NCBI GenBank assembly: GCA_902550225.1
Contig: CACCYL010000003.1
Coordinates: 6,213-70,212 of the forward strand
Length of the DNA stretch: 64,000 nt
Direction: 5' to 3'
Source: an uncultured Alphaproteobacteria bacterium
GTDB taxonomy: Bacteria > Pseudomonadota > Alphaproteobacteria > Methylaequorales > Methylaequoraceae
The first letter of the stretch is position 1. Every line of letters begins with the position of its first letter. The notes under the pieces are model-generated. The model was not told the DNA's origin and did not search any database. It was given only the letters and a program-made list of their open reading frames with translations. Positions 32,638-51,699 of the stretch are shown piece by piece. A program made the position numbers and the translations under genes.

Positions 32638-33246
32638 ATGACATTGGAAATAATTGACAAAATACTTAACTTGTATCTGTCATTAGAGCATTTAGTGAAT
32701 TTACATTTTTATAAATTCTCTTTTGCTTTCGTTTTAGTTTCTATTTTTTGGGTATCTTTTATAGGTATTGTAACTCCAGTGATTTTAATTTCAACTCTAA
32801 CTTTTGGATATTTCGGTGCATTTATTTCTTTATTTACACTTATGATAAGTTCTTTAATAAATTTTTTCTTAGCCACTAAAGCAAAAAGTTTGATTTCAAA
32901 ACTTAAATATAAAAAACCATTAATTTCAGATAATCCTCTTATTCTTTATATTATATTTCGTTTTCTTCCAGGAGCACCCTATCTAATTAAGAATTTTTCA
33001 GTGGTTTTATTTAAGCTGAACTTAAAAAAGTTTTTTCTGGCAGTTATATTATCTGATACACCCCAAGTAATTATTTTTACTTTTTTTTTTAAAAGGTTAA
33101 TTGACTCGTCTAGTAATATTTTTATTAATAGAAATTACAATCAAGTGGTTGAACAAATGTATTTACCAATGTTATTAATTTTTGGTTTCTTTATATTTTT
33201 ATATTTTCTAAATAAGAAAATTGGGGCTAAATTTTTTGAAAAATGA
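32638..33246 (+). CDS. TVP38/TMEM64 (DedA superfamily) membrane protein
   Basis: Polytopic, with the RFLPGAPYLIKNF re-entrant loop motif. Confidence 0.6.
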   Translation: MTLEIIDKILNLYLSLEHLVNLHFYKFSFAFVLVSIFWVSFIGIVTPVILISTLTFGYFGAFISLFTLMISSLINFFLATKAKSLISKLKYKKPLISDNPLILYIIFRFLPGAPYLIKNFSVVLFKLNLKKFFLAVILSDTPQVIIFTFFFKRLIDSSSNIFINRNYNQVVEQMYLPMLLIFGFFIFLYFLNKKIGAKFFEK

Positions 33247-33306: not shown

Positions 33307-33393
33307 GCCCCTATGGCGGAATTGGTAGACGCGACGGATTCAAAATCCGTTGAACTTCGGTTCATGTCCGTTCGAGTCGGACTAGGGGTACCA
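33307..33393 (+). tRNA. tRNA-Leu (anticodon CAA), CCA encoded
   Basis: Hand-folded cloverleaf: acceptor GCCCCTA/TAGGGGT, D arm GCG-GAATTGGTAGA-CGC, anticodon stem ACGGA/TCCGT with loop TTCAAAA, long variable arm GAAC-TTCG-GTTC, T arm GTCCG-TTCGAGT-CGGAC, discriminator A, CCA. Confidence 0.93.
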
Positions 33394-33416: not shown

Positions 33417-34346
33417 TTAATTTATGAATGATTGTAGATTTTTTTTGGCATATAACATTTTAGGATAATAATGTTGTTCAAGATCCTCTAACAGCCAATC
33501 AACATTAATTGAATCCATTTTTGTAAATAATAAGTTAGGAATTCCATGTAACTTTAAGTCAGATTTATGAGGAATGTATTTGGGTAAACCGCCACTTGGA
33601 TCTAAAACAAACATTTCCAAGCCATATTTTCTCATATGAACTCTCATAGTATTTAAAGAATCGTTTAATCTAGCCAAACAATGAGGAGCATATTCAACAA
33701 TCCAATATCGCACAATATCGTTTTTAAGAAGAGATTGGGATCCACGAAGAATTTGCCCCTCAAAACCTTCAACATCAATTTTCACAACTTTTATTTTTTT
33801 ATCATTAATTTCTTTATCTAATGTGGACGTTTTTAAACTCTTCCAATCTAAATTTTCATTATCAGGTTTTTTAACACCATATGATGTTCCTGAATCATGT
33901 GAAGAAAAGTGAAAAAAAACTTCCTCACCACTGCTCTCTCCAAGAATAGTTTTTTTTAGTTTTATATTTCTAAAATTGTTAAGTTTTATATTTGCTCTCA
34001 ATTCCTCAGAGCTCTCTTTTCCAGGTTCAAAGGCAATGACTTTACCCTCAGACCCTACTAGTGAACTCATTAATAATGAATGCATTCCTATATTAGCACC
34101 AATGTCAACACATGTGTCTTTTGGACTTATTATACGTGTTAAGAAAAGACCAATATCGTTTTCATAAAAATGTCCGTTCTTTATCCACGAATAAATAGTT
34201 TTATGATTATTTTTTTCTGGATAAAAATTATATTTAAACTCTTTTTGATGCAATTTTTTCATCAAAATATTTCTTTCGTTTAAATAATAGCTATTGTAAC
34301 TAAATCTGAGAAGTTTTTGTTCTTTAAACATAACCAAAATTAGCAA
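33417..34346 (-). CDS. FkbM-family methyltransferase (island segment 1)
   Basis: CVDIGANIGMHS SAM motif, VIAFEP and KIDVEGFE FkbM motifs. Confidence 0.75.
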   Translation of the reverse strand: MLILVMFKEQKLLRFSYNSYYLNERNILMKKLHQKEFKYNFYPEKNNHKTIYSWIKNGHFYENDIGLFLTRIISPKDTCVDIGANIGMHSLLMSSLVGSEGKVIAFEPGKESSEELRANIKLNNFRNIKLKKTILGESSGEEVFFHFSSHDSGTSYGVKKPDNENLDWKSLKTSTLDKEINDKKIKVVKIDVEGFEGQILRGSQSLLKNDIVRYWIVEYAPHCLARLNDSLNTMRVHMRKYGLEMFVLDPSGGLPKYIPHKSDLKLHGIPNLLFTKMDSINVDWLLEDLEQHYYPKMLYAKKNLQSFIN

Positions 34347-37258: not shown

Positions 37259-37332
37259 GATGGCTGAGGGGATTTGAACTCCTTACATCTAGTACTGCAA
37301 ACTAGCGCTCTAACAAACTGAGCTTCAGTTAG
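37259..37332 (-). tRNA. tRNA-Cys(GCA)-like sequence with mismatched acceptor stem (pseudo-tRNA or 5'-truncated att remnant)
   Basis: The reverse complement folds as D arm GCTC-AGTTTGTTA-GAGC, anticodon stem CTAGT/ACTAG with loop TTGCAGT, and T arm AGGAG-TTCAAAT-CCCCT (1 mismatch). The acceptor CTAACTG vs CAGCCAT pairs at only 4 of 7 positions. No CCA. Confidence 0.5.
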
Positions 37333-37617: not shown

Positions 37618-38631
37618 TTATTGATTTAATCCTTTTCTATATTTTTCATCTTTTGAATTTAATAACTTTTGTATTTCTTTTTTTGAAATGGTGCATATTT
37701 TTTCAACATTTTTTTGCCTTATGATTATTTCATAAAAACATTGTAACTGTTCAAGTTTGTTTGTATCAAATGATTTTTTTATATAAATTCCCTCATTTTT
37801 TATAAACACTAATTCTTGCGAATCTTTCTGTTTCTTGTAATTTTCGAAAAATTGAGACAAAGAATCATACGTATTTGGTCGAGATCCCAAGAATACTGTT
37901 TGATCAGGAAAGAGATTCCACTTGTTATTTAAACACCAAAATAATTTATTATCAAAAACTAATTGCATTAATTTTAAGTCATTAATTAGATTATGATCTT
38001 TGGTTATTTTTTTTTTAAAATCTTTCTCTATTTTTATTGATTTTTTGGGAGTTGTTTTTAAAACTTGTAACAATTTAAAAAGATCTAAACTTATTTCATT
38101 TAAACTATCTCCTGAAATAATAATCCCATGGTTTTTGAGTAAAAAAATATTAATTTTTTTTTTTTCTTTTATCGTTTTATCAAAAATTTCTGTTGCTAAT
38201 TCTTTGCCTGGCATTTTGTAATCAATGCACAAGTAATTTTTAGTATAATTAATTCTTTCAGATAAATCTATTTCTGCGCTATTCCTTACTAAATATGAAA
38301 TTGCTTCAACGGCATGTAGATGAATTACAAATTTATGTTTTATTATACCATGCATTAAGGTCTCCATTGATGGTTTTAAATTTTTAAATTCATTATTCTT
38401 ATTTTCCAAGTTTCCTCCTTGATAAAAATTAGCATTTAATTTTTCTAGACTAACTTTTACAAAAATATTTTTGTGCAAAGCATCTTTTAAAGAAAGTCCC
38501 GAGGCTTTAATTAATAATTCATCGTTATGTTTATAAGATACATTACCGCCTATACCCTGAACTAAAAGTATATTTTTGCCTACTTTGTCACAAAATTGTG
38601 ACAATTTTTTTATTTGTTTACTTTGGTTCAT
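37618..38631 (-). CDS. Class II aldolase/adducin-domain protein
   Basis: QGIGGNVSYK and KPSMETLMH..VIHLHA motifs, resembling the N-terminal aldolase half of bifunctional aldolase/SDR proteins and the AraD/MtnB fold. Confidence 0.6.
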   Translation of the reverse strand: MNQSKQIKKLSQFCDKVGKNILLVQGIGGNVSYKHNDELLIKASGLSLKDALHKNIFVKVSLEKLNANFYQGGNLENKNNEFKNLKPSMETLMHGIIKHKFVIHLHAVEAISYLVRNSAEIDLSERINYTKNYLCIDYKMPGKELATEIFDKTIKEKKKINIFLLKNHGIIISGDSLNEISLDLFKLLQVLKTTPKKSIKIEKDFKKKITKDHNLINDLKLMQLVFDNKLFWCLNNKWNLFPDQTVFLGSRPNTYDSLSQFFENYKKQKDSQELVFIKNEGIYIKKSFDTNKLEQLQCFYEIIIRQKNVEKICTISKKEIQKLLNSKDEKYRKGLNQ

Positions 38632-39373
38632 TTTTCTTTAGTTTTGCTATGAGCAACCTCAAATCATTGAAATTTGAAAAGGAAAAGTCAGGAGAATTTT
38701 CGCCTTTACCTTTAACTGCCCCTTTGTGTATTTTTTGAAATGTTACAGCATTGATCGAATCTTTTGATCCTTTTATATCTGCTATTGGATCATCTCCAAT
38801 CATCCAAATTTTATCTCCTTTTGGTTGTAATTTTTCAAGTGCTAATTTAAATGATGAAAAATGAGGTTTATCAAAACCTGATTCTTCAGACGTGACAACA
38901 TAATCAAAAAACTTATCTAAATCAAAGTATACCATTTTTCTGAACTGTATTTGCGCTGTGAGGTCAGTAACAATAGCAAGGGGGATCTCGAGCAATCTTA
39001 AGTCTTCGAGTAATTCTTTAACACCTTTAAATAACAAAGCATTATTTAGAAATGTTCTCCAATAAGTTTGCTCAAACTCCAGAGTCATGAGAATCTGACT
39101 TCCAAGACCTAAAATTTCGAAAACTTTATTAATATACAAAAGTCTACTGTGCGACGATGCTGTCCCCTCCAAGTAAGATTTTACAATCTTCCTAGCCTCT
39201 ATAAATTTTTTATCAAATAATTTTGAACTAATGTTAAATTTTTCCATAAACTTTTTTTTAATAGCACTCATCGCTTTTTCATGGGCAGGTGAATAAGGAT
39301 ATAACGTGTTATCTGTGTCAAATAAAATTGCATCAGGAAGTTTTAAAATATTTATATTAGAATGTTTTTTCAT
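38618..39373 (-). CDS. HAD-superfamily hydrolase (phosphatase)
   Basis: DAILFDTDNTLY (DxDxT motif I), VTD (motif II) and IGDDPIADI (motif IV). Start set at MKKHSN (39371-39373), a TAATG overlap with the upstream gene. Confidence 0.75.
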   Translation of the reverse strand: MKKHSNINILKLPDAILFDTDNTLYPYSPAHEKAMSAIKKKFMEKFNISSKLFDKKFIEARKIVKSYLEGTASSHSRLLYINKVFEILGLGSQILMTLEFEQTYWRTFLNNALLFKGVKELLEDLRLLEIPLAIVTDLTAQIQFRKMVYFDLDKFFDYVVTSEESGFDKPHFSSFKLALEKLQPKGDKIWMIGDDPIADIKGSKDSINAVTFQKIHKGAVKGKGENSPDFSFSNFNDLRLLIAKLKKNEPK

Positions 39374-41391
39374 TATACCATTTTTTTTGTCAGTACCTGA
39401 TCTATATGAACCAAAGTAATAAGCTGAATTAAACCTTGCACCCCCCCTTCCCATTTAGGTTTAAAGTCAAGAAACTGAATTGTTTTTGGGCAGACAAATT
39501 TAGCAGACAATTCTATATCTTTTTCAGATGGCTCTCCTTCTATTGTTAATATGAATTGATCAGAATCATTTAGTTCTTTCATTTCTACATTGAGTCCACA
39601 CAAACCAATTAAAGCTCTTGACAAAGATACCTCACTTAACCAATTTCGTGAAGTTATAACCAATTTGTATTTCAATTTTGAAAAATCTATCTTATCATTA
39701 AAGTTTGCGTTAACTGGATGAAGAGAAATTATCAAATCTGCTTTTTTTGCTTGAGGCTTTATATAAATCTCTGAGTCTTTTTCTCTTCTTTTTAGACTTA
39801 CCTTCACCTCATTCACAGTGTGTCCTCGTTTACTTGAATCACGCCTTATCTTCAAAAATTTTCTCATTTTTTCGTCCATTTCAATAAAGATTGAGAGATC
39901 ATAACATTTCCTTAATATTGGGAGGTAGAGTGCGTGAAGTCCACTTACTAAAATTATATCATTGCTCTTAATTTTTTCAGGTAAACTCATTCTACCTGTT
40001 TCATGATCGTATTTTTTTTTAAAAATATTTTTACCATTTATCAAATTTATTATGTCAAGAGTTAATTGCTGTAAATTATTTGCCAGTGGATTAAGATGAG
40101 TTAAAATTTTCCACATTGGTTTTTTCCTATCCCACAAATGATAATCATCTCCAGAAATTGAAGTTACAGAATTTTTACCAAATAACTTAATTATTAAACT
40201 AACTAAATTATCTTTTCCTGAACCAGAATCACCAGAAATTCCAAGTACGAAAGGTTTTCTACTTAATTTAAAAAAATCATTTTGGTAAAAAGAATATTTG
40301 CCTATTCTCATTAATATTACAATTCCGATTGTAATTAGTGCCGTATTCAACCAAGAATAAAGTAGATTGAAATAAATAAAATCTTGATTTCCAATTTTTA
40401 GTAAATTAATTACTAAAAAAAGAACAGAAAACATCACTGAAAGTGGAATTGAAAACTTATCGTCAGTAGACTGACTTTGATAAGAAACTAAAGATAAAAT
40501 AGTCCACACATACCATCCTGGAGGAGAAGGTGTTAAAATGGTTATAAGCAGAAAGGTTCCTCCCACAATATTCATGAATAAGATAAAATTAATACGATTT
40601 ACCTGCACAACTATGTAAAATACTAAAAAATATGCTAGAGGAAATATAAAAATTTGAGCTTGTTCTTTAAAATCTAAAGCAAGGCTATAAATATTGGAAA
40701 CCTCAGGATTTTTGTAAATCATAGAGATTCCTGAAGGTGTAAATATTACGAAGGGAAGTAATAATACAATAGACCCCAAAAAAATACCCTTTAAAAAATC
40801 ATGTAATCTATGTTTGTAAACAGAATTGTTTATTATAAAAATAAAAAAGAATGGTATGACCAGAATCATGCTTATTTTGATTGAAATACTTAAGATACAA
40901 AATATTCCAGAAGCAAAAAAATTTTTTAAATTTAAAGATTGTATTGCCAATAATATAAATAGCATTGGTATGATATCGTTGTATCCAAGAAGATATACAG
41001 ACGTAAATATAATTGGTGAAAACCAGTAAATAAATAAAATGAAATTTTTATTTTGTCCTGTTAATTTTTTAATTACTAATAAAAATAAGATATCTGCAGA
41101 TAATATTGCTGCATGATAGCCAATAATCATTGGTAGATCTAAAAGCTTTATTATGAATATGAAGGGTAAAAAAAATATCCACATCCCGTATCCATATGGA
41201 AAAGCTGCTATACTTCCATTATTTTCTAACCATGTTTGCCAAGGATCTAATGAAATTTGATTTATACTTAATTCTAAAAATGGAAGGTAAAAATCTTCAA
41301 TGAGTGATTGTTCAAAGTAAATTATTAAAAAAATTTTTAAAATAAGACCAATGAAAAAAAAAGGACTTTTGATTATATTATAATCAAGCAT
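39373..41391 (-). CDS. Fusion protein: GT-C-like polytopic membrane domain plus phosphoribulokinase/uridine-kinase-family P-loop kinase domain plus about 110-aa C-terminal domain
   Basis: The first ~380 aa are polytopic (about 10 hydrophobic segments) with an early loop DPWQTWLENNGSIAAFPYGYG. Then GISGDSGSGKDN (P-loop), GDDYHLWDR, LVSGLHALY, FLKIRRDSSKRGHT and YIKPQAKKADLII, a string of motifs colinear with PRK. Start set at MLDYN. Confidence 0.6.
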   Translation of the reverse strand: MLDYNIIKSPFFFIGLILKIFLIIYFEQSLIEDFYLPFLELSINQISLDPWQTWLENNGSIAAFPYGYGMWIFFLPFIFIIKLLDLPMIIGYHAAILSADILFLLVIKKLTGQNKNFILFIYWFSPIIFTSVYLLGYNDIIPMLFILLAIQSLNLKNFFASGIFCILSISIKISMILVIPFFFIFIINNSVYKHRLHDFLKGIFLGSIVLLLPFVIFTPSGISMIYKNPEVSNIYSLALDFKEQAQIFIFPLAYFLVFYIVVQVNRINFILFMNIVGGTFLLITILTPSPPGWYVWTILSLVSYQSQSTDDKFSIPLSVMFSVLFLVINLLKIGNQDFIYFNLLYSWLNTALITIGIVILMRIGKYSFYQNDFFKLSRKPFVLGISGDSGSGKDNLVSLIIKLFGKNSVTSISGDDYHLWDRKKPMWKILTHLNPLANNLQQLTLDIINLINGKNIFKKKYDHETGRMSLPEKIKSNDIILVSGLHALYLPILRKCYDLSIFIEMDEKMRKFLKIRRDSSKRGHTVNEVKVSLKRREKDSEIYIKPQAKKADLIISLHPVNANFNDKIDFSKLKYKLVITSRNWLSEVSLSRALIGLCGLNVEMKELNDSDQFILTIEGEPSEKDIELSAKFVCPKTIQFLDFKPKWEGGVQGLIQLITLVHIDQVLTKKMV

Positions 41392-41393
41392 TT

Positions 41394-41984
41394 TTAACAC
41401 TCCCACTTTTCTGGAAATTTCGTGCATACTGCATCAAGCTTGATATTCATTGCTTCTAATTTTTTTTTTATCGCTAATATTTTTGATTTGTCATTATGAG
41501 GGTGTAGTTCAGGAGAGGCTAAACAAATTTTAAAGTTTAATTTTTTTAGATTCAAGAATTCCTCCTCTGTTAAAACTAAATTGTTAAATACATCTAACCA
41601 AATCCAAGAAACCAAGTTGCTCACCTTTTCAGCAGTAATTATAGATTCATAATCAGAAACACGAACAGCAATTTTTTTTTCTCCCTCCTTTGACTTTTTA
41701 ATTATGAAAGGAAATGATTGATCCAAAAAAAAATAATCTTTTATATCATGTTTTAATAAGAGGAATTTTATTTTATCTTCAAGTCCTTCTTCTTTAACAT
41801 TTAAAATTAACAAATTATGGTTGTAAAATCTTATCCATTTGTCAAAATTTTCGCCATTTTCATAAGGTTCGTGATTTAAAATTAAGTTTCCATTATAGGT
41901 CCTTATATCAAGTTCTACACCATATTTAGTGTCTACCTTTTTTAATTCAGCGATACTATTACATCTATGAATTACTATTTTCAT
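41394..41984 (-). CDS. PLC-like/GDPD-like phosphodiesterase family protein (tentative)
   Basis: VIHRCNS...VELDIR...LILNHEP follows the HR...ExD...H(D/E) pattern of GDPD TIM barrels. Start set at MKIVIHR. Confidence 0.45.
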   Translation of the reverse strand: MKIVIHRCNSIAELKKVDTKYGVELDIRTYNGNLILNHEPYENGENFDKWIRFYNHNLLILNVKEEGLEDKIKFLLLKHDIKDYFFLDQSFPFIIKKSKEGEKKIAVRVSDYESIITAEKVSNLVSWIWLDVFNNLVLTEEEFLNLKKLNFKICLASPELHPHNDKSKILAIKKKLEAMNIKLDAVCTKFPEKWEC

Positions 41985-42675
41985 TACTATTTTTTTTAAG
42001 TTTGAAACTGTATTGTAAAGTTCTTTTAATAAATTTAGCTTTAGAAAAAAAACCAAAATTCCAGCTAGAAGATCCAAATTTTCTTTTTTTAAAATAAGTT
42101 GGAAACCTTATTATTTTTTGTTTTTTTATGTGAGCAAAGTAAAAAACATATAAATCTAATGAAAAATCCAAAGGAGGATTTGTAAACTTGTTATAAAAAT
42201 CTCTCGAAAACATTGTAGGCTGAGCGTTAATATCATTTAAGAGTTTTCTGAATAAAATTGTTTCTAAAACACTCATTCCAAATGTAAAAAAATTATCTTG
42301 AAATGAACGACCGTATCTCAATCCTTTTACAAATATATTTTGACCATTTTTTTCTATAATACTAATAGCTTTTAATATATCATTAGGATCAGTTTGCAAA
42401 TCAGCGTGAGTCCAACCAATATAATCTCCCTTGGTGTGTTTTAATCCAAAAAGTATTCCATATCCATAACCTTTATTTTTATCAATTTTAAGAATTTGAT
42501 AATTTTTTTTTTCTTTTAGTGATTTTTTAAGAGTTTTATATGTATGGTCTGTAGATCCATTGTCGACAAATAAGATTTCTATATTTTTTTTTGAAAGCAA
42601 ATGAACGCATGAATCAATAAGTGAGTTTATAGACTTTTCTTCATTAAAGCACGGAATCACAATTGAATATTTCAT
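41965..42675 (-). CDS. Family 2 glycosyltransferase, polyprenyl-phosphate sugar synthase type (GtrB/ArnC-like)
   Basis: YSIVIPCFNEE...VDNGSTD...HADLQ (DxD-equivalent) motifs. Short soluble GT2 next to gtrA. Confidence 0.82.
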   Translation of the reverse strand: MKYSIVIPCFNEEKSINSLIDSCVHLLSKKNIEILFVDNGSTDHTYKTLKKSLKEKKNYQILKIDKNKGYGYGILFGLKHTKGDYIGWTHADLQTDPNDILKAISIIEKNGQNIFVKGLRYGRSFQDNFFTFGMSVLETILFRKLLNDINAQPTMFSRDFYNKFTNPPLDFSLDLYVFYFAHIKKQKIIRFPTYFKKRKFGSSSWNFGFFSKAKFIKRTLQYSFKLKKNSNENSNS

Positions 42676-42678
42676 AAT

Positions 42679-43074
42679 CTAAGAATTTTTAAAAACATAG
42701 TACTTCATACCAAAAAAATTTAAAATAGCAGAGCAACCAGTAGAAATAAAGAATGATAGTATAAATGTTCTTTGAAAATTATTAAAATAATGATTTATCG
42801 AACTGTTAATTATAACATTCATACACATTGAAAAAAAATATAGAATGTAAAACCTAACAAAACTCTTTTTTACATTCTTTTTGTAACGGAAAGTAATTGT
42901 TTTATTAGCAAAATAAGAAAAAAGTGTTCCAGTGAAAAAACCTACGGCTTTTGCAAAATGAATATTAAAATAATTGAGGATGAATAAATAACTACAGTAA
43001 TCTAAAAAAACAGTAAAAAAGCCAATTGGTAAAAATAAAAAAATTTGTTTTTTAACTTTACTTGTTCTTTTCAT
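42679..43074 (-). CDS. GtrA-family membrane protein (putative polyprenyl-P-sugar flippase)
   Basis: About 130 aa with 4 TM helices and FLDYCSYLFIL...FSYFANKTITF motifs. Start set at MKRTSKV. Confidence 0.8.
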   Translation of the reverse strand: MKRTSKVKKQIFLFLPIGFFTVFLDYCSYLFILNYFNIHFAKAVGFFTGTLFSYFANKTITFRYKKNVKKSFVRFYILYFFSMCMNVIINSSINHYFNNFQRTFILSFFISTGCSAILNFFGMKYYVFKNS

Positions 43075-43081
43075 TTTGTTT

Positions 43082-44683
43082 TCAATTATAGAAATCATAG
43101 TCATTTGATATTTTGTACTCGTGACCTTTCCATTTATTAAAACAAGATTGCCAATATTCAAAAGTTTTAAGTTCATTTGGAGTTCCCCACGAAACATAAC
43201 TCTCAACCTCAAATAATCTACATTTTAAACCCATTTGTATAGCATCATTTAAACATGAATCTACATAGTATTCTCCATTTACTTTACCTTGCCTTTTTTT
43301 TAATGAACTTGACGATTTAATAAAATATTTCATTTTTTTAAATGTAAATGTACCTAAAACTATAGGATAATTTTCAAATTTATTTTTTTTTTTTACGAAA
43401 ACTTTATCTACCTTATCACCAATCATCTTAAGCCAACCAAACATTTTAGGCTGTTTCATTGCTTCAGGGTAGTTTCTTATACCCCAAACAATAATATCTG
43501 TATCTTTATCATTTAATAAACTTATATATTTTTCATTATTATAAATCAGTTTACTATCACATGATGTAATAGTTATGGGTGAATTAATCAGTTCAGGTTT
43601 TTTTTTTAGAAGATAATTGATACCTATATCAATAGTACATAATTGACCACCTGTGTAACCTGAAATTAAAGCTGTTTCTGAATTTTTAAAAATTTTATTA
43701 ACTTTTTCTTGGATTTTTTGAGAGCCTTTCATTGTATTTCTTATCAAAAATAAAGTTTTTTCAAATTCTGGCAAAGCCTTTGAAGCTTGTATCACCATTT
43801 CTTTACCTGACACTTTGATCAGTGGTTTAGGAGTTCTATACTTTTCTTTTAAAAATCTTTTGCCAATTCCTGCCATTGGTATTATCAGCTCACCCTTTGT
43901 CTTAATTTTTTTTCTTTTTTTTACTAAACTAGAGAATATCCTGGACCAATATATATATTCATGAAGATCCTCAGGTGTTCCCCATTGCATAAAATATTTG
44001 ATGGGATAAATCATAATTTTTTTCTTTTTAGAAATTAGATTTTTATAACTCAGACTCACATAATATTCACCGTTAGTAATCTGATTGGATTTTTTTTGTT
44101 CTTTAAAAGCATGGATCATAGAATTACTGTCAGAAAAATAATAAGTACCTGTAGATGCATATTCTTCAATTCGATTTAGGGTAAAGCTTTTTTTTTCTCT
44201 AATATCTAAAATTTTTCTTTTATTCTCTTTGATATATGCATAATAATTTTTTCCAAGTGAATGGGGGTGAAAACCCTTGTATGAGGGAATAGCTCCTTCA
44301 CAATCTTCGTTTCGTACGAATTTTTTAAAATCATTCCAATTCCAATAACACGTAAAATCACAATAATTCACAATAGTTTGAACTCCTTTTTTTATTTCTG
44401 TTTCAGCTTGCAAAACTGTGTGAACCGGTCCAAGTTTGTGAGGATTAATTCCAATAATTTTTCCGCTTGGACAAAATTTTTTAATAACATTTTCTACATT
44501 GAATTTTTTGTTTTTTAAATGATCTTTATTACAAATAAATAAAAAATTCTTTTCTCCAGGAAACATATCAATAATGTAGGATATAATTGGCCTTCCATTA
44601 ACGTCAATCAGAAACTTTGGAATTTGATACCCATAATTTTTAAATCTATTACCAAACCCAGACATTGGAATTATAATTTGCAT
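43082..44683 (-). CDS. Tandem-domain sugar-phosphate nucleotidyltransferase-like protein
   Basis: Two internal repeats, each opening with the NTP-transferase G-loop: IIIPMSGFGNRF...PKFLIDVNGRPII and LIIPMAGIGKRF...PKPLIKVSGKEMV. Both halves end in WGTPE/WGTPN. Confidence 0.6.
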   Translation of the reverse strand: MQIIIPMSGFGNRFKNYGYQIPKFLIDVNGRPIISYIIDMFPGEKNFLFICNKDHLKNKKFNVENVIKKFCPSGKIIGINPHKLGPVHTVLQAETEIKKGVQTIVNYCDFTCYWNWNDFKKFVRNEDCEGAIPSYKGFHPHSLGKNYYAYIKENKRKILDIREKKSFTLNRIEEYASTGTYYFSDSNSMIHAFKEQKKSNQITNGEYYVSLSYKNLISKKKKIMIYPIKYFMQWGTPEDLHEYIYWSRIFSSLVKKRKKIKTKGELIIPMAGIGKRFLKEKYRTPKPLIKVSGKEMVIQASKALPEFEKTLFLIRNTMKGSQKIQEKVNKIFKNSETALISGYTGGQLCTIDIGINYLLKKKPELINSPITITSCDSKLIYNNEKYISLLNDKDTDIIVWGIRNYPEAMKQPKMFGWLKMIGDKVDKVFVKKKNKFENYPIVLGTFTFKKMKYFIKSSSSLKKRQGKVNGEYYVDSCLNDAIQMGLKCRLFEVESYVSWGTPNELKTFEYWQSCFNKWKGHEYKISNDYDFYN

Positions 44684-44685
44684 GG

Positions 44686-46281
44686 TTATTCTTGACTTTT
44701 TTTGATTAAAATAAAAATACCCCTTTGGATCTTAGAAACTGAAAGTATTTGGTAACCTTCATTTTTAATTTCTAAGGATAAACAATTTAAATTACATTCT
44801 GAAAAATATTGGCCAAACAAAGCAATTAATAAATGACTATTTTTTTCTTTTGGCCACAAAAAAGCTGAACCATAATTATCTTTCGAATAATTAAAACTTC
44901 TTAATCTTAAACATCCATTTTTATTAAAAGATTCAGTTAAAGTATTATCAAATTTATCATAGGCATAAGCGTTATTACCATAAAAATGAAAAGCTTCAGC
45001 ACTAAATGTTTCACCTCCTTCGTACAAATTAATATCGCCTAAATTTAATTCTAAGATTTTTTCCTTTACTTTGTTATTTACATCTAATTGACGGTTAAAG
45101 TATTGTTTTTGAGCATTTATTTCTTTCGAAGAAAAAAAAATAATACCTACTAAAAATAATGGAAATATAATTTTACTTTTAACATTGAGTTTGTTTTTAA
45201 AACTAAAATAGCTTAAAAGAAAAATAAAGATACACATTCCAGATGAAATATGTCTCAAACCAACGGCTCCAGATTCAATTGAAAGATTAATAGTTATTAC
45301 CTTTACCAAAAAAATAGCACTTAGACCAAAAATCAATAAGCTGGGAAAATCTTTTTTTTTTTTTTTTGAAATTATTTGTGAAGAAAATTTTATGGAAAGA
45401 GAAATTAAATTTATAATCAGTAATGTTAGGAATATAATAAATATTGAAAATGATATATTTGAATATTCAAAAAATTTAAAAAAAAAATCTGAAAGATTTT
45501 CAAATTCACTTTTAAGATGAGAAGATGGTGCATTAAAAAATAAATTTTTTATCAAACCTTGAGTCTCACCAAGAGCGGAAATACAAAAAATAATAAAGCT
45601 AGAAATACAATAAAATATAAATTTCAATAAATATTCTTGTCGTTTATTTTGTAATTCAAAACAAATCAAAGTTACAATTCCAAACATACTAATAATAATT
45701 ATTGGTAAAATAGATAATTTTGTTGAAATTCCAGCACCATAAAAGATTGCCAACACTAAAAAATCTTTCAAAGAAATTAAATGAGGTTTATTAATTAATG
45801 AAAAAGTCTTGGTTAATATTACTACACATAAAGGAATTACAAATGAATCAGCACCATAACATGTTAAATAATACCAAAATGGAGGCCAAAAAATCAAAGC
45901 TGTCAAAGAGAGAAAAAATTTTATTTCTTCATTAAATTCTTTAGTCTTAGTATAAAAATAAAACAGTGAAAAAGAATAAGCCAATGCAACTACGTAGTAT
46001 GATACATTAAATATGGTTTGACTTGATAATATAGGATCATTAAAAAAAATTATAATAAATGAGAGCAAAAAAGTTGGGACTATCCCAGGATGATTTACAA
46101 CCGTTTTATCAAAACTCAAAAATTCTCGAAAAGATAAAGCTTTATAAAAGTAGTCTGCTTGTAAATCTGTTTGTCTAATAAAAAAAATAGAGAAATCAGA
46201 ATTTACAACATATGTAACGTAGGTTGTGAAAATAGTTATAAATAATAGAAGAATTTTATATTTTGAAAAAATTGGAAGCAT
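44686..46281 (-). CDS. Polytopic membrane protein, GT-C-like glycosyltransferase or polymerase (tentative)
   Basis: About 11-13 TM helices followed by a roughly 150-aa soluble C-terminal domain. First gene of the island operon. Confidence 0.45.
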   Translation of the reverse strand: MLPIFSKYKILLLFITIFTTYVTYVVNSDFSIFFIRQTDLQADYFYKALSFREFLSFDKTVVNHPGIVPTFLLSFIIIFFNDPILSSQTIFNVSYYVVALAYSFSLFYFYTKTKEFNEEIKFFLSLTALIFWPPFWYYLTCYGADSFVIPLCVVILTKTFSLINKPHLISLKDFLVLAIFYGAGISTKLSILPIIIISMFGIVTLICFELQNKRQEYLLKFIFYCISSFIIFCISALGETQGLIKNLFFNAPSSHLKSEFENLSDFFFKFFEYSNISFSIFIIFLTLLIINLISLSIKFSSQIISKKKKKDFPSLLIFGLSAIFLVKVITINLSIESGAVGLRHISSGMCIFIFLLSYFSFKNKLNVKSKIIFPLFLVGIIFFSSKEINAQKQYFNRQLDVNNKVKEKILELNLGDINLYEGGETFSAEAFHFYGNNAYAYDKFDNTLTESFNKNGCLRLRSFNYSKDNYGSAFLWPKEKNSHLLIALFGQYFSECNLNCLSLEIKNEGYQILSVSKIQRGIFILIKKSQE

Positions 46282-46415
46282 TTAAAACTCTTAAACTATC
46301 ATCTGATGTTAGAAACAGAAACTTTATCTAAAAAGCTGAAACAAAATTAGTTTAGCCTTAACAATTATGGGGCGCAAGAGGAATCTTAGTTGTTTATTAA
46401 AGATTTTAAAAAAAA

Positions 46416-46437
46416 GTGTGATAACTTAGTGTTATAG
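46416..46437 (+). repeat. Phased direct repeats GTGTGATAA (46416-46424) and GTGTTATAG (46429-46437)
   Basis: Same 13-bp phasing. The distance from the second repeat to the tRNA fragment is identical to the 34.4-kb unit. Confidence 0.8.
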
Positions 46438-46484
46438 TAAAATTTATCTGAATTTAAATCAACAACTTACTCACCAACTCAACT

Positions 46485-46541
46485 GATTCAAAATCCCTTG
46501 AACTTCGGTTCATGTCCGTTCGAGCCGGACTAGCGGTACGA
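46485..46541 (+). repeat. Copy of the 3' 57 nt of tRNA-Leu(CAA); att-like remnant 2
   Basis: 53/57 identical to 33337-33393, with differences at 46497, 46525, 46534 and 46540. It shares the C at the 33349-equivalent position with the 34.5-kb copy. Confidence 0.88.
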
Positions 46542-46562
46542 TTGTTTAAAAAACAAAAATAA

Positions 46563-47660
46563 TTATATGGAGTTTTTAGTTTTAAAAATATTTAAGACAT
46601 ATTTACCTATTTGAATAGATGATGTTAAGCCGGGTGATTCAATTCCAAATAAATTAATTATAAAAGAATCGTTATCAAGTTTTTTAGTAACAAATGAAAA
46701 GTCATTATTTGTATGTTTTGGTCTAATTCCACAATAGTTATAGTTTAAATTCCTATTTTTGACTTCAGGCCAGTACTTAGATATCGAATTTAAAAATTTT
46801 TTTTTTATATTTTTAGTTACATTAAAATCAATTTCCTCTACTTCAACTGTATCAGGACCGAAAATTGTAACACCATCAAGATTTATAGTTGAGTGGATTC
46901 CTAATCCGTTTTTTTCAGGTAGCGGATAAATTAATTTTTTGAAAGGTGATTTTCCTGATAAAGACAAATAATTTCCTTTTACATATCTAATTACAGGTAT
47001 GTCATCAACATTAATACCATCAATTTTTTTGGCTATAAGATGGCTGTACAACCCTGTAGAGTTAATTATAGATTTTGTTTTTACTTCCTTGTTTTTATCT
47101 TTTTTTAAGAAAAAAGAAATATGATTAGTTTTATTAACACTATGAGAAAACTCCGAATTAAAACTTACTACCCCACCATTATTTTCAATATCGGTTACAA
47201 AATTAAGCATTAAATCGTGAATGTCAATTATACCCGTTGTTCTTGAGAGCAAACCTATTTCGCCAACTAACTCGGGTTCAAGCTCTTTAAGATGCCTTTG
47301 CGAAAGTTTTTCCAAAATTAAGCCATTTCTTTCAGCATTTAGAATTATTTGATTAAGTTTTTTTTCTTCCTTTTTGCTAGTTGCAACAATTATCTTACCA
47401 CAATTTGAAAATTCAATACCTCTTTCTTTTGCATATGAATACAAGCTAACATTTCCGGCTGCACAAAACTTATTTTTAAAACTATAATGGGGATAATAAA
47501 TTCCAGCGTGAATTACACCACTATTTCTAGAACTATTTTCTTGACCAAATGAACTATTCTTTTCAACTACTAGAACTTTTTTACCTGATAAAGTAAGTTC
47601 CCTTGCAATTGATAATCCAACGACACCACCACCAATGACTGTAACTTCAAAATCAACCAC
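46563..47660 (-). CDS. FAD-dependent oxidoreductase, L-2-hydroxyglutarate oxidase (LhgO/YgaF)-like
   Basis: VTVIGGGVVGLSIARE..VLVVEK..SSRNSGVIHAGIYY N-terminus. C-terminal ESPGLTSS. Confidence 0.72.
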   Translation of the reverse strand: MVDFEVTVIGGGVVGLSIARELTLSGKKVLVVEKNSSFGQENSSRNSGVIHAGIYYPHYSFKNKFCAAGNVSLYSYAKERGIEFSNCGKIIVATSKKEEKKLNQIILNAERNGLILEKLSQRHLKELEPELVGEIGLLSRTTGIIDIHDLMLNFVTDIENNGGVVSFNSEFSHSVNKTNHISFFLKKDKNKEVKTKSIINSTGLYSHLIAKKIDGINVDDIPVIRYVKGNYLSLSGKSPFKKLIYPLPEKNGLGIHSTINLDGVTIFGPDTVEVEEIDFNVTKNIKKKFLNSISKYWPEVKNRNLNYNYCGIRPKHTNNDFSFVTKKLDNDSFIINLFGIESPGLTSSIQIGKYVLNIFKTKNSI

Positions 47661-47763
47661 TCATCAAACTTTACATATAATTAGTAAGATTCAAAGATAA
47701 ATTATAATTATATGTGAGGATTATAAATTTCATAAACCTATATTACAGAAATGATGATGTAAC

Positions 47764-47819
47764 TAATTCAAATTCCGTTAAAATCACGTTAATGTCAGTT
47801 TGAATTGGGCAAGGATTAC
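47764..47819 (+). repeat. Degenerate copy of the tRNA-Leu(CAA) 3' half; att-like remnant 3
   Basis: An ungapped hand alignment to 33336-33391 gives 39/56 matches, including ATTCAAA, TCCGTT, ATGTC and GTT blocks in register. Confidence 0.45.
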
Positions 47820-47875
47820 TGCAAAAAATTTTTCTCTTTTGTGAATTATATTTTTTTAATAGATTTAAACTTGAA

Positions 47876-51697: not shown

Positions 51698-51699
51698 AT

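What the first reader, a model, noticed from the sequence alone, without database searches (positions are those of the whole stretch)
39373..41391. Phosphoribulokinase-family kinase domain fused to a GT-C-like polytopic membrane protein
**What the sequence shows.** The C-terminal half carries a run of motifs colinear with plant/cyanobacterial-type PRK and uridine kinase: GISGDSGSGKDN, GDDYHLWDR, THLNPLANN, KKKYDHETG, LVSGLHALY, DLSIFIEMD, FLKIRRDSSKRGHT and YIKPQAKKADLII.

The N-terminal ~380 aa are polytopic, with an early loop DPWQTWLENNGSIAAFPYGYG that resembles GT-C (DUF2029/GT87-like) first-loop motifs. A further ~110 aa follow the kinase domain.

**Interpretation.** A soluble sugar-phosphate or nucleoside kinase fold tethered covalently to a membrane glycosyltransferase fold is not an arrangement I know from characterised systems. 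It implies substrate channelling at the membrane, or phosphorylation of a lipid-linked intermediate.
Basis: partly seen in the sequence, partly recalled or inferred. Interest (0 to 1): 0.7.

Follow-up and report, generated by a model that had tools for sequence, protein, structure and literature searches.

The report
Membrane glycosyltransferase fused to phosphoribulokinase
This is a real, widespread but unstudied bacterial protein that joins a membrane sugar-transferase fold to a cytoplasmic phosphoribulokinase, inside a conserved mobile gene cassette that probably decorates cell-surface polysaccharides with a sugar made from ribulose 5-phosphate.

Summary
Window 39373-41391 (-) is one intact 672-aa ORF with a Shine-Dalgarno site, and its stop overlaps the next gene's ATG.

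- **C-terminal half (residues ~377-672).** It is a complete type-II phosphoribulokinase fold. The "extra 110 aa" are its C-terminal subdomain. The Ru5P-binding and catalytic residues are conserved; the redox cysteines are not.
- **N-terminal half (residues 1-372).** It has a GT-C glycosyltransferase fold, closest to Gpi14/PIG-M, PimE and ALG6. Family-invariant D139 and K172 align with donor-sugar ligands of Gpi14.
- **Distribution.** The fusion is not an artefact. At least 559 species genomes carry it, and this membrane domain almost always occurs fused.
- **Context.** It sits in a conserved seven-gene cassette: double nucleotidyltransferase, GtrA, GtrB-like GT2, PI-PLC/GDPD-like protein, the fusion, a HAD hydrolase closest to RuBP 5-phosphatase, and a class-II aldolase-family protein. 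A variable polytopic membrane protein lies next to it. The cassette is often beside O-antigen genes, and once lies between IS26 copies on an E. coli plasmid.

Best reading: a Gtr-like periplasmic glycosylation system whose sugar comes from Ru5P via RuBP and ribulose 1-phosphate. The two active sites face opposite sides of the membrane. That argues against direct channelling or phosphorylation of a lipid intermediate. The sugar's identity (possibly a ketopentose such as xylulose) is inferred only. I found no published characterisation.

The parts
39373..41391 (-). Fusion gene (672 aa plus stop): N-terminal GT-C-fold membrane domain and C-terminal type-II phosphoribulokinase.
   Evidence: ORF. 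Start and stop context. Full-length homologues. Model with pLDDT 85.5.
40276..41391 (-). GT-C-fold domain, residues 1-372, about 12 TM helices with juxtamembrane helices in the first external loop. Near-invariant residues: W51, D100, D139, K172, E230, W293, W296. D49 (DPW motif) is conserved in 82% of members.
   Evidence: Model pLDDT 83.6, pTM 0.86. Foldseek: Gpi14 E 3e-4, TM-score 0.67 (normalised to the query); PimE; ALG6. Profile versus PDB: GPI-MT-I E 4.5e-5. ALG3 Pfam in 12 of 15 homologues. Conservation counts.
39376..40263 (-). Phosphoribulokinase domain, residues ~377-672. P-loop G387-K393. Ru5P and catalytic residues R422, Y461, H463, K514, R517, D518, R522. Includes the PRK C-terminal subdomain.
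   Evidence: Residue roles from bioRxiv 10.1101/422709 and PMC5241800. Conserved in 314-322 of 343 members.
38618..39373 (-). HAD-family phosphatase (251 aa), translationally coupled to the fusion gene. Best match is ribulose-1,5-bisphosphate 5-phosphatase.
   Evidence: NCBIfam NF053830 E 3e-46, 158 bits, below the curated cutoff of 330. Pfam HAD. It is the most conserved cassette protein, up to 65-67% identity. HAD motifs conserved.
37618..38631 (-). Class-II aldolase/adducin-family protein (337 aa) with conserved metal and phosphate-binding motifs and a ~150-aa C-terminal extension.
   Evidence: Pfam PF00596 E 2e-17. NCBIfam hits to rhamnulose-1-P aldolase-type bifunctional enzymes and to MtnB. 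Motif conservation.
41394..41984 (-). 196-aa PI-PLC/glycerophosphodiester-phosphodiesterase-like protein with the conserved pattern HR...E.D.R...H.
   Evidence: 48% identical to the Yersinia cassette gene. PGAP name on the E. coli, Azospirillum and Hirschia copies. Conservation. No Pfam or NCBIfam hit.
41965..42675 (-). GT2 glycosyltransferase (236 aa) of the polyprenyl-phosphate glycosyltransferase (GtrB/DPMS/ArnC) type, without a TM tail.
   Evidence: Pfam PF00535 E 2e-28. NCBIfam PgfS, ArnC, AglJ and PpgS hits. PHROG GtrB-like E 1e-23.
42679..43104 (-). GtrA/DPMS-TM family small membrane protein. The start codon is uncertain; it overlaps the end of the upstream gene.
   Evidence: Pfam PF04138 E 2.5e-12. 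Conserved position in the cassette.
43082..44683 (-). Two-domain sugar-phosphate nucleotidyltransferase (533 aa). Both halves keep a GxGxRF NTP-binding motif.
   Evidence: NCBIfam RmlA and GlmU N-terminal type hits. PDB 4evw E 8e-10. Both motifs conserved in 70 homologues.
44686..46281 (-). 531-aa polytopic membrane protein (~9 TM helices). It occupies the variable slot of the cassette and is a candidate acceptor-specific partner or transferase.
   Evidence: No Pfam, NCBIfam or PDB similarity. Other cassettes carry unrelated polytopic proteins in the adjacent slot, in at least 8 BLAST-unlinked families. A 51%-identical copy lies near the cassette in a relative.

Best explanation
**What it is.** The gene encodes a bifunctional inner-membrane protein. 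Its N-terminal ~372 residues form a GT-C-fold domain whose binding site for a polyprenyl-phosphate-sugar faces the periplasm. A ~10-residue linker connects it to a cytoplasmic, non-redox-regulated type-II phosphoribulokinase.

**The system.** It is the signature component of a conserved, horizontally mobile seven-gene cassette plus one variable membrane protein. The cassette works like a Gtr-type periplasmic glycosylation system with its own sugar-precursor branch.

**Proposed flow**
1. PRK domain: Ru5P + ATP gives RuBP.
2. HAD phosphatase: RuBP gives ribulose 1-phosphate.
3. The class-II-aldolase-family enzyme remodels the ketose 1-phosphate, most plausibly by epimerisation through retro-aldol/aldol chemistry.
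4. The two-domain nucleotidyltransferase, possibly with the PI-PLC/GDPD-like phosphodiesterase, makes a nucleotide-activated sugar.
5. The GT2 and GtrA pair loads the sugar onto undecaprenyl phosphate and presents it at the periplasmic face.
6. The GT-C domain, alone or with the variable polytopic protein, transfers it to a surface glycan such as the O-antigen.

**Why fused.** Fusing the first enzyme to a late enzyme would tether RuBP production to the membrane machinery, fix their stoichiometry, and might couple kinase activity to transferase state.

**Shown versus inferred.** Shown here: folds, residue conservation, cassette conservation and genomic context. Inferred: every catalytic step, the identity of the sugar, the acceptor and any coupling.
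For: **Kinase domain**
- PRK fold and family.
- Residues equivalent to CrPRK Arg64, Tyr103, His105, Arg159, Asp160 and Arg164 are R422, Y461, H463, R517, D518 and R522. This follows from the alignment and the roles described. They are conserved in 314-322 of 343 members.
- The regulatory cysteines are replaced by Ser (alignment).

**Membrane domain**
- GT-C fold.
- D139 and K172 align to Gpi14 Glu140 and Lys173, which are donor-mannose ligands.
- Gpi14 and PimE have 12 TM helices with both termini in the cytoplasm.

**Fusion and cassette**
- The fusion is obligate.
- Cassette conservation across 84 loci: 73 to 79 loci for five of the six partner genes and 54 for GtrA; several loci are cut off by contig ends.
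- Catalytic motifs of all partners are conserved.
- The best family hit for the HAD is RuBP 5-phosphatase. RuBP to Ru1P to a class-II aldolase is an experimentally shown sequence in haloarchaea.
- GT2 is of the GtrB/ArnC type and sits next to a GtrA gene.
- Genes overlap, indicating translational coupling.

**Context**
- Neighbours include wzm/wzt/gmd, WbpL/WbpM-like genes and GT4 genes.
- An IS26-bracketed copy lies on an E. coli plasmid.
- The adjacent polytopic protein varies, as Gtr* does in Gtr systems.

By general knowledge rather than any test here, hosts such as Yersinia, E. coli and Burkholderia are not CO2-fixing organisms, so RuBP there is presumably not for carbon fixation.
Against: - No enzyme of the cassette has been assayed.
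- The PRK domain scores below NCBIfam's curated PRK cutoff (192 versus 236 bits). The HAD scores below the RuBP-phosphatase cutoff (158 versus 330 bits).
- The window protein itself has no Pfam hit in its membrane half.
- The Asp at the position expected for the GT-C catalytic base (D49) is Asn in 14% of members, and the D58N change inactivates PimE.
- A ketose 1-phosphate is not an anomeric phosphate. An ordinary nucleotidyltransferase followed by a GT2 would therefore not by itself give a glycosyl donor, and extra chemistry has to be postulated.
- The roles of the PI-PLC-like protein and of the variable membrane protein are unassigned.
- Topology is inferred from homologous structures and from charge distribution. 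My simple hydropathy count gave 13 helices and was ambiguous.
Confidence: 0.55

Rival explanations
1. The membrane domain is not a transferase. It is a non-catalytic anchor, scaffold or lipid-binding sensor, as PIG-U is within the GT-C fold. The adjacent variable polytopic protein is the real, acceptor-specific glycosyltransferase. The kinase is simply tethered to the membrane complex.
For: D49 is Asn in 47 of 343 members, and PimE D58N is inactive. PIG-U appears among the Foldseek hits. A polytopic protein that differs between cassettes sits next to the conserved genes, as Gtr* does in Gtr systems.
Against: W51, D100, D139, K172, W293 and W296 are each kept in at least 333 of 343 members, and E230 in 316. 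D139 and K172 align with donor-sugar ligands of Gpi14. None of the variable proteins shows detectable similarity to any GT-C or to each other.
Confidence: 0.22
2. The kinase domain is a uridine/cytidine kinase, as current genome annotation calls it. It would supply nucleotides for sugar activation at the membrane.
For: PGAP and JGI name the family 'uridine kinase'. PF00485 covers both kinase types. Udk structures are also matched by Foldseek at E ~1e-11.
Against: The PRK model scores 192 bits against 81 and 72 bits for the Udk equivalogs, whose cutoffs are 180 and 220. PDB PRKs score E 1e-37 against 1e-10 for UCKs. The PRK-specific C-terminal subdomain is present. The Tyr-x-His and Arg residues that hold the Ru5P phosphate are conserved. 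The coupled neighbour resembles an RuBP phosphatase.
Confidence: 0.06
3. The kinase phosphorylates a lipid-linked intermediate or the polyprenol carrier at the cytoplasmic face.
For: The linker between the last TM helix and the kinase is very short and conserved, so the active site is held near the membrane.
Against: The Ru5P-binding constellation of soluble PRKs is fully conserved. No PRK-family member is known to me to act on lipids. A RuBP-phosphatase-like HAD and a ketose-1-phosphate-type aldolase-family enzyme follow in the operon.
Confidence: 0.07
4. PRK, HAD and aldolase form a catabolic shunt (Ru5P to RuBP to Ru1P to DHAP plus glycolaldehyde) that is merely adjacent to unrelated glycosylation genes.
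For: Exactly this RuBP to Ru1P to aldolase sequence is catabolic in haloarchaea.
Against: The three genes are locked in one order with the nucleotidyltransferase, GtrA, GT2 and the PI-PLC-like gene across phyla. The kinase is covalently fused to a GT-C domain in essentially all members. The cassette sits in polysaccharide loci and moves as a unit. ATP spent to make RuBP from Ru5P gives no catabolic advantage over the pentose phosphate pathway (reasoning).
Confidence: 0.05
5. The fusion is an assembly or frameshift artefact.
For: None found.
Against: The ORF is uninterrupted. The closest relatives (83-100% identical) occur on many independent contigs. The same architecture occurs in isolates' complete genomes and plasmids.
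Confidence: 0.01

Closest known systems
GtrA/GtrB/Gtr* O-antigen glucosylation systems of Shigella and Salmonella (phage-borne three-component systems)
   Same: A GtrA-family small membrane protein. A GT2 of the polyprenyl-phosphate glycosyltransferase type. GT-C-fold membrane protein(s) with a periplasmic site. A variable membrane component next to conserved ones. A mobile cassette often beside O-antigen genes (description of Gtr in PMC11127046).
   Different: Gtr uses housekeeping UDP-glucose. This cassette carries five extra conserved genes for making its own precursor: PRK, HAD, the aldolase-family protein, the double nucleotidyltransferase and the PI-PLC-like protein. The GT2 lacks the C-terminal TM helices. 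One GT-C domain is invariant and fused to a kinase. No phage copy of the fusion was found.
Three-component pentofuranose systems (polyprenyl-phosphoribose synthase, MATE flippase and GT136 GT-C; Citrobacter youngae O1/O2) and mycobacterial decaprenyl-phospho-arabinose pathway
   Same: Extracytoplasmic, post-polymerisation addition of a pentose-derived sugar from a polyprenyl-phosphate donor by a GT-C enzyme, with auxiliary epimerases that diversify the sugar (PMC11127046).
   Different: Those systems start from PRPP and a UbiA-type synthase, and have no nucleotide-sugar step. Here there is no UbiA-type or MATE gene. The entry point is Ru5P through PRK, followed by nucleotidyltransferase, GT2 and GtrA.
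Type-II (cyanobacterial, plant, archaeal) phosphoribulokinase: PDB 6hzk, 6kev, 5b3f, 9qkp
   Same: Whole-chain fold match with TM-score ~0.8 normalised to the target. About 45% identity over the core with Synechococcus PRK by my count from the alignment. P-loop, Ru5P-phosphate ligands and catalytic Asp are conserved.
   Different: It is fused behind 12 TM helices. It lacks both regulatory cysteines. It occurs in organisms without a Calvin cycle. It scores below the curated PRK cutoff.
GPI mannosyltransferase I (Gpi14/PIG-M, GT50), PimE (GT87) and ALG6/ALG3-type GT-C enzymes
   Same: Same membrane fold and size. Donor-sugar ligands Glu140 and Lys173 of Gpi14 align with invariant D139 and K172. 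An acidic residue usually follows the first juxtamembrane helix.
   Different: Sequence similarity is marginal, and the window protein has no Pfam hit of its own. The putative base is Asn in 14% of members. There is a cytoplasmic kinase domain. The donor and acceptor are unknown.
Haloarchaeal non-carboxylating pentose bisphosphate pathway (RuBP phosphatase plus Ru1P aldolase)
   Same: A HAD phosphatase most similar to the RuBP 5-phosphatase family, encoded next to a class-II aldolase-family gene and downstream of an RuBP-forming enzyme.
   Different: In haloarchaea RuBP comes from ribose 1,5-bisphosphate and the pathway is catabolic. Here RuBP would come from PRK, and the genes are embedded in a glycosylation cassette. 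The aldolase-family protein is a different, longer subfamily.

Membership tests
Phosphoribulokinase (EC 2.7.1.19), type II | P-loop kinase core matching PF00485 and PRK profiles better than uridine kinase profiles | tested here: met
   PF00485 E 4e-32. NF005655 PRK scores 192 bits against 81 and 72 bits for Udk. PDB PRKs E 3e-37 against UCK 4e-10.
Phosphoribulokinase (EC 2.7.1.19), type II | Ru5P-phosphate ligands (CrPRK Arg64, Tyr103, His105) and the catalytic loop (Arg159, Asp160, Arg164) | tested here: met
   R422, Y461, H463, R517, D518 and R522 align to these residues (alignment; roles). They are conserved in 314-322 of 343 members.
Phosphoribulokinase (EC 2.7.1.19), type II | C-terminal beta-sheet subdomain of the type-II fold | tested here: met
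   Foldseek aligns 303-331 columns to whole PRK chains, with TM-score up to 0.81 normalised to the target. The 9qko match spans residues 389-648.
Phosphoribulokinase (EC 2.7.1.19), type II | Score above NCBIfam's curated family cutoff | tested here: not met
   192.3 bits against a cutoff of 236 for NF005655. It is a distinct subfamily.
Phosphoribulokinase (EC 2.7.1.19), type II | ATP-dependent conversion of Ru5P to RuBP | not testable with these tools
   Needs an enzyme assay.
GT-C glycosyltransferases (polyprenyl-phosphate-sugar dependent) | GT-C membrane fold with a long first external loop carrying juxtamembrane helices | tested here: met
   Model pTM 0.86. Foldseek Gpi14, PimE and ALG6 with probability 1.00 and TM-score 0.60-0.67 normalised to the query. 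Helices at residues 28-44 and 50-56 lie between TM1 and TM2.
GT-C glycosyltransferases (polyprenyl-phosphate-sugar dependent) | Conserved acidic catalytic base in the first external loop | tested here: inconclusive
   D49 is present in the window protein and in 281 of 343 members, but is Asn in 47.
GT-C glycosyltransferases (polyprenyl-phosphate-sugar dependent) | Donor-binding residues near TM6 and external loop 3 | tested here: met
   The profile alignment (E 4.5e-5) puts D139 on Gpi14 Glu140 and K172 on Lys173. It assumes a +7 numbering offset, which reproduces five residue identities.
GT-C glycosyltransferases (polyprenyl-phosphate-sugar dependent) | Significant match to a curated GT-C sequence family | tested here: inconclusive
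   The window protein has no Pfam hit at E<=1. Twelve of 15 homologues hit ALG3 (best 1.4e-6) and one hits GT87.
Gtr-type multi-component periplasmic glycosylation system | GtrA-family protein plus a polyprenyl-phosphate GT2 | tested here: met
   PF04138 E 2.5e-12 and PF00535 E 2e-28. ArnC, PgfS and AglJ-type hits. GtrB-like PHROG E 1e-23.
Gtr-type multi-component periplasmic glycosylation system | Acceptor-specific GT-C transferase that varies between systems | tested here: inconclusive
   A variable polytopic protein is adjacent in most loci, in at least 8 unrelated families. Its fold was not determined. The invariant GT-C domain is the one fused to PRK.
Gtr-type multi-component periplasmic glycosylation system | Modification of a surface glycan in vivo | not testable with these tools
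   Only genomic association with O-antigen and polysaccharide genes is available.
RuBP 5-phosphatase (NF053830), for the neighbouring HAD gene | Full-length match above the equivalog cutoff | tested here: not met
   It is the best hit and covers positions 3-231 of the 234-position model at E 3e-46, but scores 158 bits against a cutoff of 330.

The most novel reading that the evidence does not exclude
In many non-autotrophic bacteria, phosphoribulokinase and RuBP would have a second role unrelated to CO2 fixation: the entry to a previously undescribed route for activating a ketopentofuranose (ribulose or xylulose) for cell-surface glycans.

In this reading the phosphate is 'walked' along the sugar:
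1. From C5 (Ru5P) to C1 (RuBP, then Ru1P), which frees O5 for furanose ring closure.
2. The aldolase-fold enzyme epimerises the sugar, for example D-ribulose-1-P to L- or D-xylulose-1-P.
3. The first nucleotidyltransferase domain and the PI-PLC-like enzyme move the phosphate to the anomeric C2 through a 1,2-cyclic phosphate.
4. The second nucleotidyltransferase domain makes the true glycosyl donor for the GT2 and GtrA step and for periplasmic GT-C transfer.

The covalent PRK and GT-C fusion would couple cytoplasmic precursor supply to periplasmic demand across the membrane. This could be the missing genetic basis of acid-labile xylulofuranose side chains such as those of Yersinia enterocolitica O:10 and O:5,27.
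Probability: 0.2. Interest if true: 0.85.

Novelty: new variant of a known kind. Interest (0 to 1): 0.65.

Why it matters
**Function for a widespread unknown.** If the reading is right, a seven-to-eight-gene cassette present in hundreds of species gets a function. Those species include Yersinia, Pseudomonas, Burkholderia, Erwinia, Vibrio fluvialis, Azospirillum, nitrifiers, Acidobacteria and marine alphaproteobacteria, plus one E. coli plasmid. A whole protein family currently mislabelled 'uridine kinase' would be re-annotated.

**A new use for RuBP.** It would show that RuBP, regarded as a Calvin-cycle or archaeal nucleoside-salvage metabolite, is made on purpose by heterotrophs for envelope glycan synthesis.

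**Serotypes and phage receptors.** It may explain how ketopentose or other unusual pentose-derived side branches reach O-antigens. That bears on serotype diversity, phage receptor masking and glycoengineering.

**An unusual architecture.** A GT-C enzyme covalently joined to a cytoplasmic kinase is a rare arrangement, with active sites on opposite faces of the membrane. It could be a tractable model for coupling precursor supply to extracytoplasmic glycosylation.

**Easy to test.** The IS26-bounded copy on an E. coli plasmid can be transferred directly.

Tried and rejected
- **Frameshift or assembly artefact.** Rejected.
- **The 'extra 110 aa' as a separate domain.** Rejected. It is the PRK C-terminal subdomain.
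- **Uridine kinase annotation.** Judged unlikely.
- **Anti-phage defence system.** No PADLOC hit for any of the eight proteins.
- **Phage-borne cassette.** No phage carries the fusion. Only the nucleotidyltransferase and an aldolase-family gene have cyanophage relatives.
- **Promoter and terminator scan of 37-47 kb.** Fewer promoter-like sites than in shuffles and no more terminator-like sites than in shuffles, so uninformative.
- **Topology by hydropathy and positive-inside counting.** Ambiguous, giving 13 candidate helices. I relied on the solved homologues instead.
- **Fold or family of the variable polytopic proteins.** No Pfam or NCBIfam hit for those scanned, no convincing PDB sequence hit for families A3 and A4, and hhalign found no relationship among A3, A4, the window's 531-aa protein and the GT-C domain.
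- **E. coli as a test of the xylulose idea.** Only two plasmids in 5,426 complete genomes carry the cassette. E. coli O95, whose main chain contains xylulose, therefore probably uses something else, or the DNA search was too insensitive.
- **Literature.** Nine full-text searches (eight after one rejected term) combined phosphoribulokinase, uridine kinase, GtrA, aldolase, O-antigen, xylulose and GT-C (one search was rejected). They found no description of this fusion or cassette. The library is incomplete, so this is not proof of absence.
- **YPTB3726.** This 'phosphoribulokinase/uridine kinase' hit in a Y. pseudotuberculosis screen could not be linked to this family.

Full report

The minus strand carries an uninterrupted ORF at 39373-41427 (684 aa).

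It lies 2 nt after the TAA of the upstream gene and has GGGAG 8-9 nt upstream. It also gives the 672-aa length of the 83-100% identical homologues from marine metagenomes. The stop codon overlaps the ATG of the next gene by one base (TAATG). Residue numbers below count from this ATG.

GC content is ~25-29% across the region and its flanks. A neighbouring glutamate synthase small subunit matches 'Alphaproteobacteria' and 'Rickettsiales' marine MAGs. The source is therefore an uncultured marine alphaproteobacterium; I did not resolve it further.

**2. The C-terminal half is a complete phosphoribulokinase.**

Sequence evidence:
- Pfam PF00485 matches at E 4e-32.
- NCBIfam's PRK subfamily model gives 192 bits (E 1e-56), against 81 and 72 bits for the two uridine-kinase equivalogs. 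All are below their curated cutoffs, so this is a separate subfamily.
- Against PDB sequences the best hits are cyanobacterial PRKs (E 3e-37), then archaeal and plant PRKs. Uridine-cytidine kinases score only ~1e-10.

Structural evidence:
- The AlphaFold model of the whole protein (pLDDT 85.5) matches whole PRK chains in Foldseek. For 9qkp the E-value is 5e-19, the TM-score normalised to the target is 0.80, and ~306 columns align. 5b3f, 6kev and 6hzk also match.
- The ~110 residues after the Pfam match are therefore the C-terminal subdomain of the type-II fold, not something extra.

Active-site evidence:
- In the printed alignment to Synechococcus PRK, R422, Y461, H463, R517, D518 and R522 fall on the residues described for Chlamydomonas PRK.
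- Those are the Ru5P-phosphate ligands Arg64, Tyr103 and His105, the catalytic Asp160, and Arg159 and Arg164 (bioRxiv 10.1101/422709). The equivalent residues Arg59, Tyr98 and His100 occur in the archaeal enzyme (PMC5241800).
- They are kept in 314-322 of 343 family members.
- The two redox-regulatory cysteines of photosynthetic PRKs are serines here (alignment).

**3. The N-terminal half has a GT-C glycosyltransferase fold.**

- A model of residues 1-372 alone is confident (pLDDT 83.6, pTM 0.86).
- Its best Foldseek matches are Candida glabrata GPI mannosyltransferase I Gpi14 (E 3e-4, TM-score 0.67 normalised to the query), mycobacterial PimE (0.60) and yeast ALG6 (0.65). ALG9, ALG12, PIG-U and STT3 follow.
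- A sequence profile of the domain finds GPI mannosyltransferase I among all PDB sequences at E 4.5e-5.
- Pfam ALG3 matches 12 of 15 homologues, although not the window protein itself.
- In the profile alignment, the family's near-invariant D139 and K172 sit on Gpi14 residues that the structure paper identifies as Glu140 and Lys173. These hydrogen-bond the donor mannose (PMC12653191). The +7 numbering offset I assumed reproduces five residue identities.
- Other near-invariant residues are W51, D100, E230, W293 and W296.
- The Asp expected after the first juxtamembrane helix (D49 in 'DPW') is present here and in 82% of members, but is Asn in 14%. The corresponding D58N change kills PimE (PMC12041525). 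A catalytic role for the domain is therefore likely but not secure.

**4. Topology.**

Gpi14 and PimE each have 12 TM helices with both termini in the cytoplasm. The strongly basic segments after residues 189, 263 and 363 fit that parity.

The kinase needs ATP and follows the last helix after a conserved ~10-residue linker. Its location in the cytoplasm is therefore inferred.

My own hydropathy count was ambiguous. I could not inspect model coordinates, so the topology is inferred, not shown. If it is right, the two active sites face opposite sides of the membrane.

**5. The fusion is ancient and obligate.**

- Full-length homologues (43-47% identity over 97% of the length) occur in Yersinia, Burkholderia multivorans, Pseudomonas, Vibrio fluvialis, Erwinia and Polynucleobacter.
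They span alpha-, beta- and gammaproteobacteria, Acidobacteria, Geobacter, Myxococcales, Bacteroidetes and Dehalococcoidales.
- A profile search with the membrane domain alone against 1.8 billion representatives returned 360 clusters at E<1e-30. Nearly all of the best 150 are 640-730 aa long, which means they are fused. The shorter ones look like fragments.
- No split version appeared in 80 fetched loci.

**6. Genomic context is the main clue to function.**

In Yersinia, Burkholderia and Pseudomonas the gene sits in the same block:
1. a two-domain sugar-phosphate nucleotidyltransferase (~555 aa);
2. GtrA;
3. GT2;
4. a 201-aa protein;
5. the fusion;
6. a HAD hydrolase;
7. a class-II aldolase-family protein;
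8. a large polytopic membrane protein.

The window has the same seven conserved genes in the same order on the minus strand (37618-44683). A 531-aa polytopic protein lies upstream.

Across 84 loci, tblastn finds the partners as follows:

| Partner | Loci with a hit (of 84) |
|---|---|
| Double nucleotidyltransferase | 73 |
| GtrA | 54 |
| GT2 | 75 |
| 201-aa protein | 79 |
| HAD | 79 |
| Aldolase-family protein | 74 |

Most gaps occur at loci cut off by contig ends or, for GtrA, probably reflect a short and weakly conserved protein.

All partners keep their catalytic signatures:
- both GxGxRF motifs of the nucleotidyltransferase;
- the DxD...T...K...GDxxxD motifs of the HAD;
- the metal and phosphate-binding motifs of the aldolase fold;
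- an HR...E.D...H pattern in the 201-aa protein, which PGAP calls PI-PLC/glycerophosphodiester phosphodiesterase family.

The adjacent polytopic protein differs between cassettes. At least eight families have no detectable relationship by BLAST, and hhalign found none among the three I compared.

Where flanks are informative, the neighbours are polysaccharide genes:
- wzm/wzt, gmd and GT1 genes on an Azospirillum plasmid;
- WbpL/WbpM-like genes and GT4 genes in Pseudomonas and Burkholderia.

On E. coli plasmid p5-S1-CAM-01-A the eight genes lie between an intact IS26 copy and a frameshifted one. The cassette therefore moves as a unit.

**7. How it most likely works.**

- The GT2 is of the polyprenyl-phosphate glycosyltransferase type, with PgfS, ArnC, AglJ, PpgS and GtrB-like hits. 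It sits beside a GtrA-family gene.
- Together with GT-C-fold membrane protein(s), this is the logic of Gtr-type periplasmic glycosylation as summarised in PMC11127046.
- The extra genes look like a dedicated precursor branch.
- The best family match for the HAD protein is the haloarchaeal ribulose-1,5-bisphosphate 5-phosphatase (E 3e-46 over the full model, below the equivalog cutoff).
- In haloarchaea that enzyme makes ribulose 1-phosphate, which a class-II aldolase then uses (PMC9700705).

I therefore propose this route: Ru5P to RuBP (PRK domain), then Ru1P (HAD), then a remodelled ketose 1-phosphate (aldolase-fold enzyme). Nucleotide activation, transfer to undecaprenyl phosphate, flipping and periplasmic transfer follow.

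Class-II aldolase-fold enzymes epimerise through retro-aldol/aldol chemistry, as in L-ribulose-5-P 4-epimerase. This is established knowledge and was not tested here.

By general knowledge rather than any test here, Yersinia, E. coli and Burkholderia are not CO2-fixing organisms, so PRK there presumably does not serve CO2 fixation.

The fusion probably localises and doses RuBP production at the membrane complex. Allosteric coupling across the membrane is a speculation.

**8. What sugar?**

This is unknown. Moving the phosphate from C5 to C1 frees O5, so that a ketopentose can close a furanose ring; Ru1P is cyclised in solution.

Three features would fit a scheme in which the phosphate is finally moved to the anomeric C2 to give a ketofuranosyl donor: two nucleotidyltransferase domains, a PI-PLC-like phosphodiesterase, and a ketose 1-phosphate that is not itself an anomeric phosphate.

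Xylulofuranose side chains are known in O-antigens. L-Xulf on the D-rhamnan of Y. enterocolitica O:10 is one example. The paper on that O-antigen gene cluster lists no gene annotated for xylulose synthesis and only presumes that one of its glycosyltransferases adds it (PMC11380512). The cassette occurs in Y. enterocolitica, Y. bercovieri, Y. frederiksenii, Y. intermedia and Y. massiliensis.

This is a lead, not a test. I have no serotype-to-genotype correlation. E. coli, which includes a xylulose-containing serogroup O95, almost never carries the cassette.

**9. Comparison with known systems and novelty.**

The closest known systems are:
- Gtr systems;
- the GT136 pentofuranose three-component systems and the mycobacterial arabinan pathway, for overall logic;
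- type-II PRK and GT50/GT87/ALG-type GT-C enzymes, for the two domains;
- the haloarchaeal pentose bisphosphate pathway, for the HAD and aldolase pair.

None of these contains a PRK and GT-C fusion or starts from Ru5P.

Nine full-text literature searches found no description of the protein or the cassette. Databases call it 'uridine kinase', 'phosphoribulokinase' or 'hypothetical protein'.

I rate it a new variant of a known kind of system. There is a modest chance that it hides a categorically new sugar-activation route.

**10. Verdict.**

Its mechanistic inference (channelling, or phosphorylation of a lipid intermediate) is not supported.

Confidence in the general model is about 0.55. Confidence in the specific ketopentose scheme is about 0.2. 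Interest is 0.65.

Noticed in passing
window 37264-37328 (-): Rfam reports a tRNA-like match (39 bits, model positions 5-66 of 71) about 290 bp downstream of the last cassette gene. ARAGORN does not call a tRNA there. It could be a tRNA fragment left by integration of the cassette or island.
   Followed up: partly
window 31669-32247 (-) and 32638-33246 (+); tRNA-Leu(CAA) at 33307-33393; 33417-34346 (-): Two DedA/VTT-domain membrane proteins flank a tRNA-Leu, next to an FkbM/RfbT-type methyltransferase. From my own knowledge, DedA-family proteins are implicated in recycling of undecaprenyl phosphate. That would be relevant to a nearby polyprenyl-phosphate-dependent glycosylation cassette.
   Followed up: no
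window 44686-48856, compared with L086 2044-7011: In a relative whose fusion protein is 83% identical, the cassette directly abuts the MacB-type ABC exporter genes (window 49208-52368). The window instead has the 531-aa polytopic protein, a DAO-family oxidoreductase and an amine-oxidase-like gene inserted between them. In the relative a 51%-identical copy of the 531-aa protein lies about 4 kb downstream of the cassette, after an MBOAT gene.
   Followed up: partly
L090 (Synechococcus phage S-SM2) 9001-12309; also phage Bellamy: Cyanomyophages carry a full-length homologue of the two-domain nucleotidyltransferase (37% identity over 99% of its length). A class-II aldolase-family gene follows it within a large glycan-biosynthesis island. 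There is no PRK fusion, HAD or PI-PLC-like gene there. The cyanobacterial host makes RuBP itself.
   Followed up: partly
L085 (E. coli plasmid p5-S1-CAM-01-A) 4986-17325: The eight-gene cassette lies between two IS26 elements (one frameshifted) on a 33-kb plasmid from a human stool isolate. A second E. coli plasmid from a bullfrog isolate carries the same block. These are the only 2 of 5,426 complete E. coli genomes with it.
   Followed up: yes
window 41092-41094 (codon of D100 in the fusion gene): An acidic residue in the middle of predicted TM helix 3 is conserved throughout the family (D in 333 and E in 10 of 343 members). It has no counterpart in the Gpi14 alignment. Its role is unexplained.
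   Followed up: no
Protein cluster of P0024 (Yersinia): Several Y. enterocolitica records annotate the protein as 551 aa rather than 683-691 aa. This is either a mis-called start or an N-terminally truncated, possibly inactive, copy.
   Followed up: no
L089 (Hirschia baltica plasmid pHbal01) 4949-19959: This is a rearranged version of the cassette. GT2, the PI-PLC-like gene, the fusion and the HAD gene are contiguous. The aldolase-family gene is about 6 kb away on the other strand. No two-domain nucleotidyltransferase is annotated nearby. Extra GtrA genes and a UDP-glucuronate decarboxylase are present.
   Followed up: no
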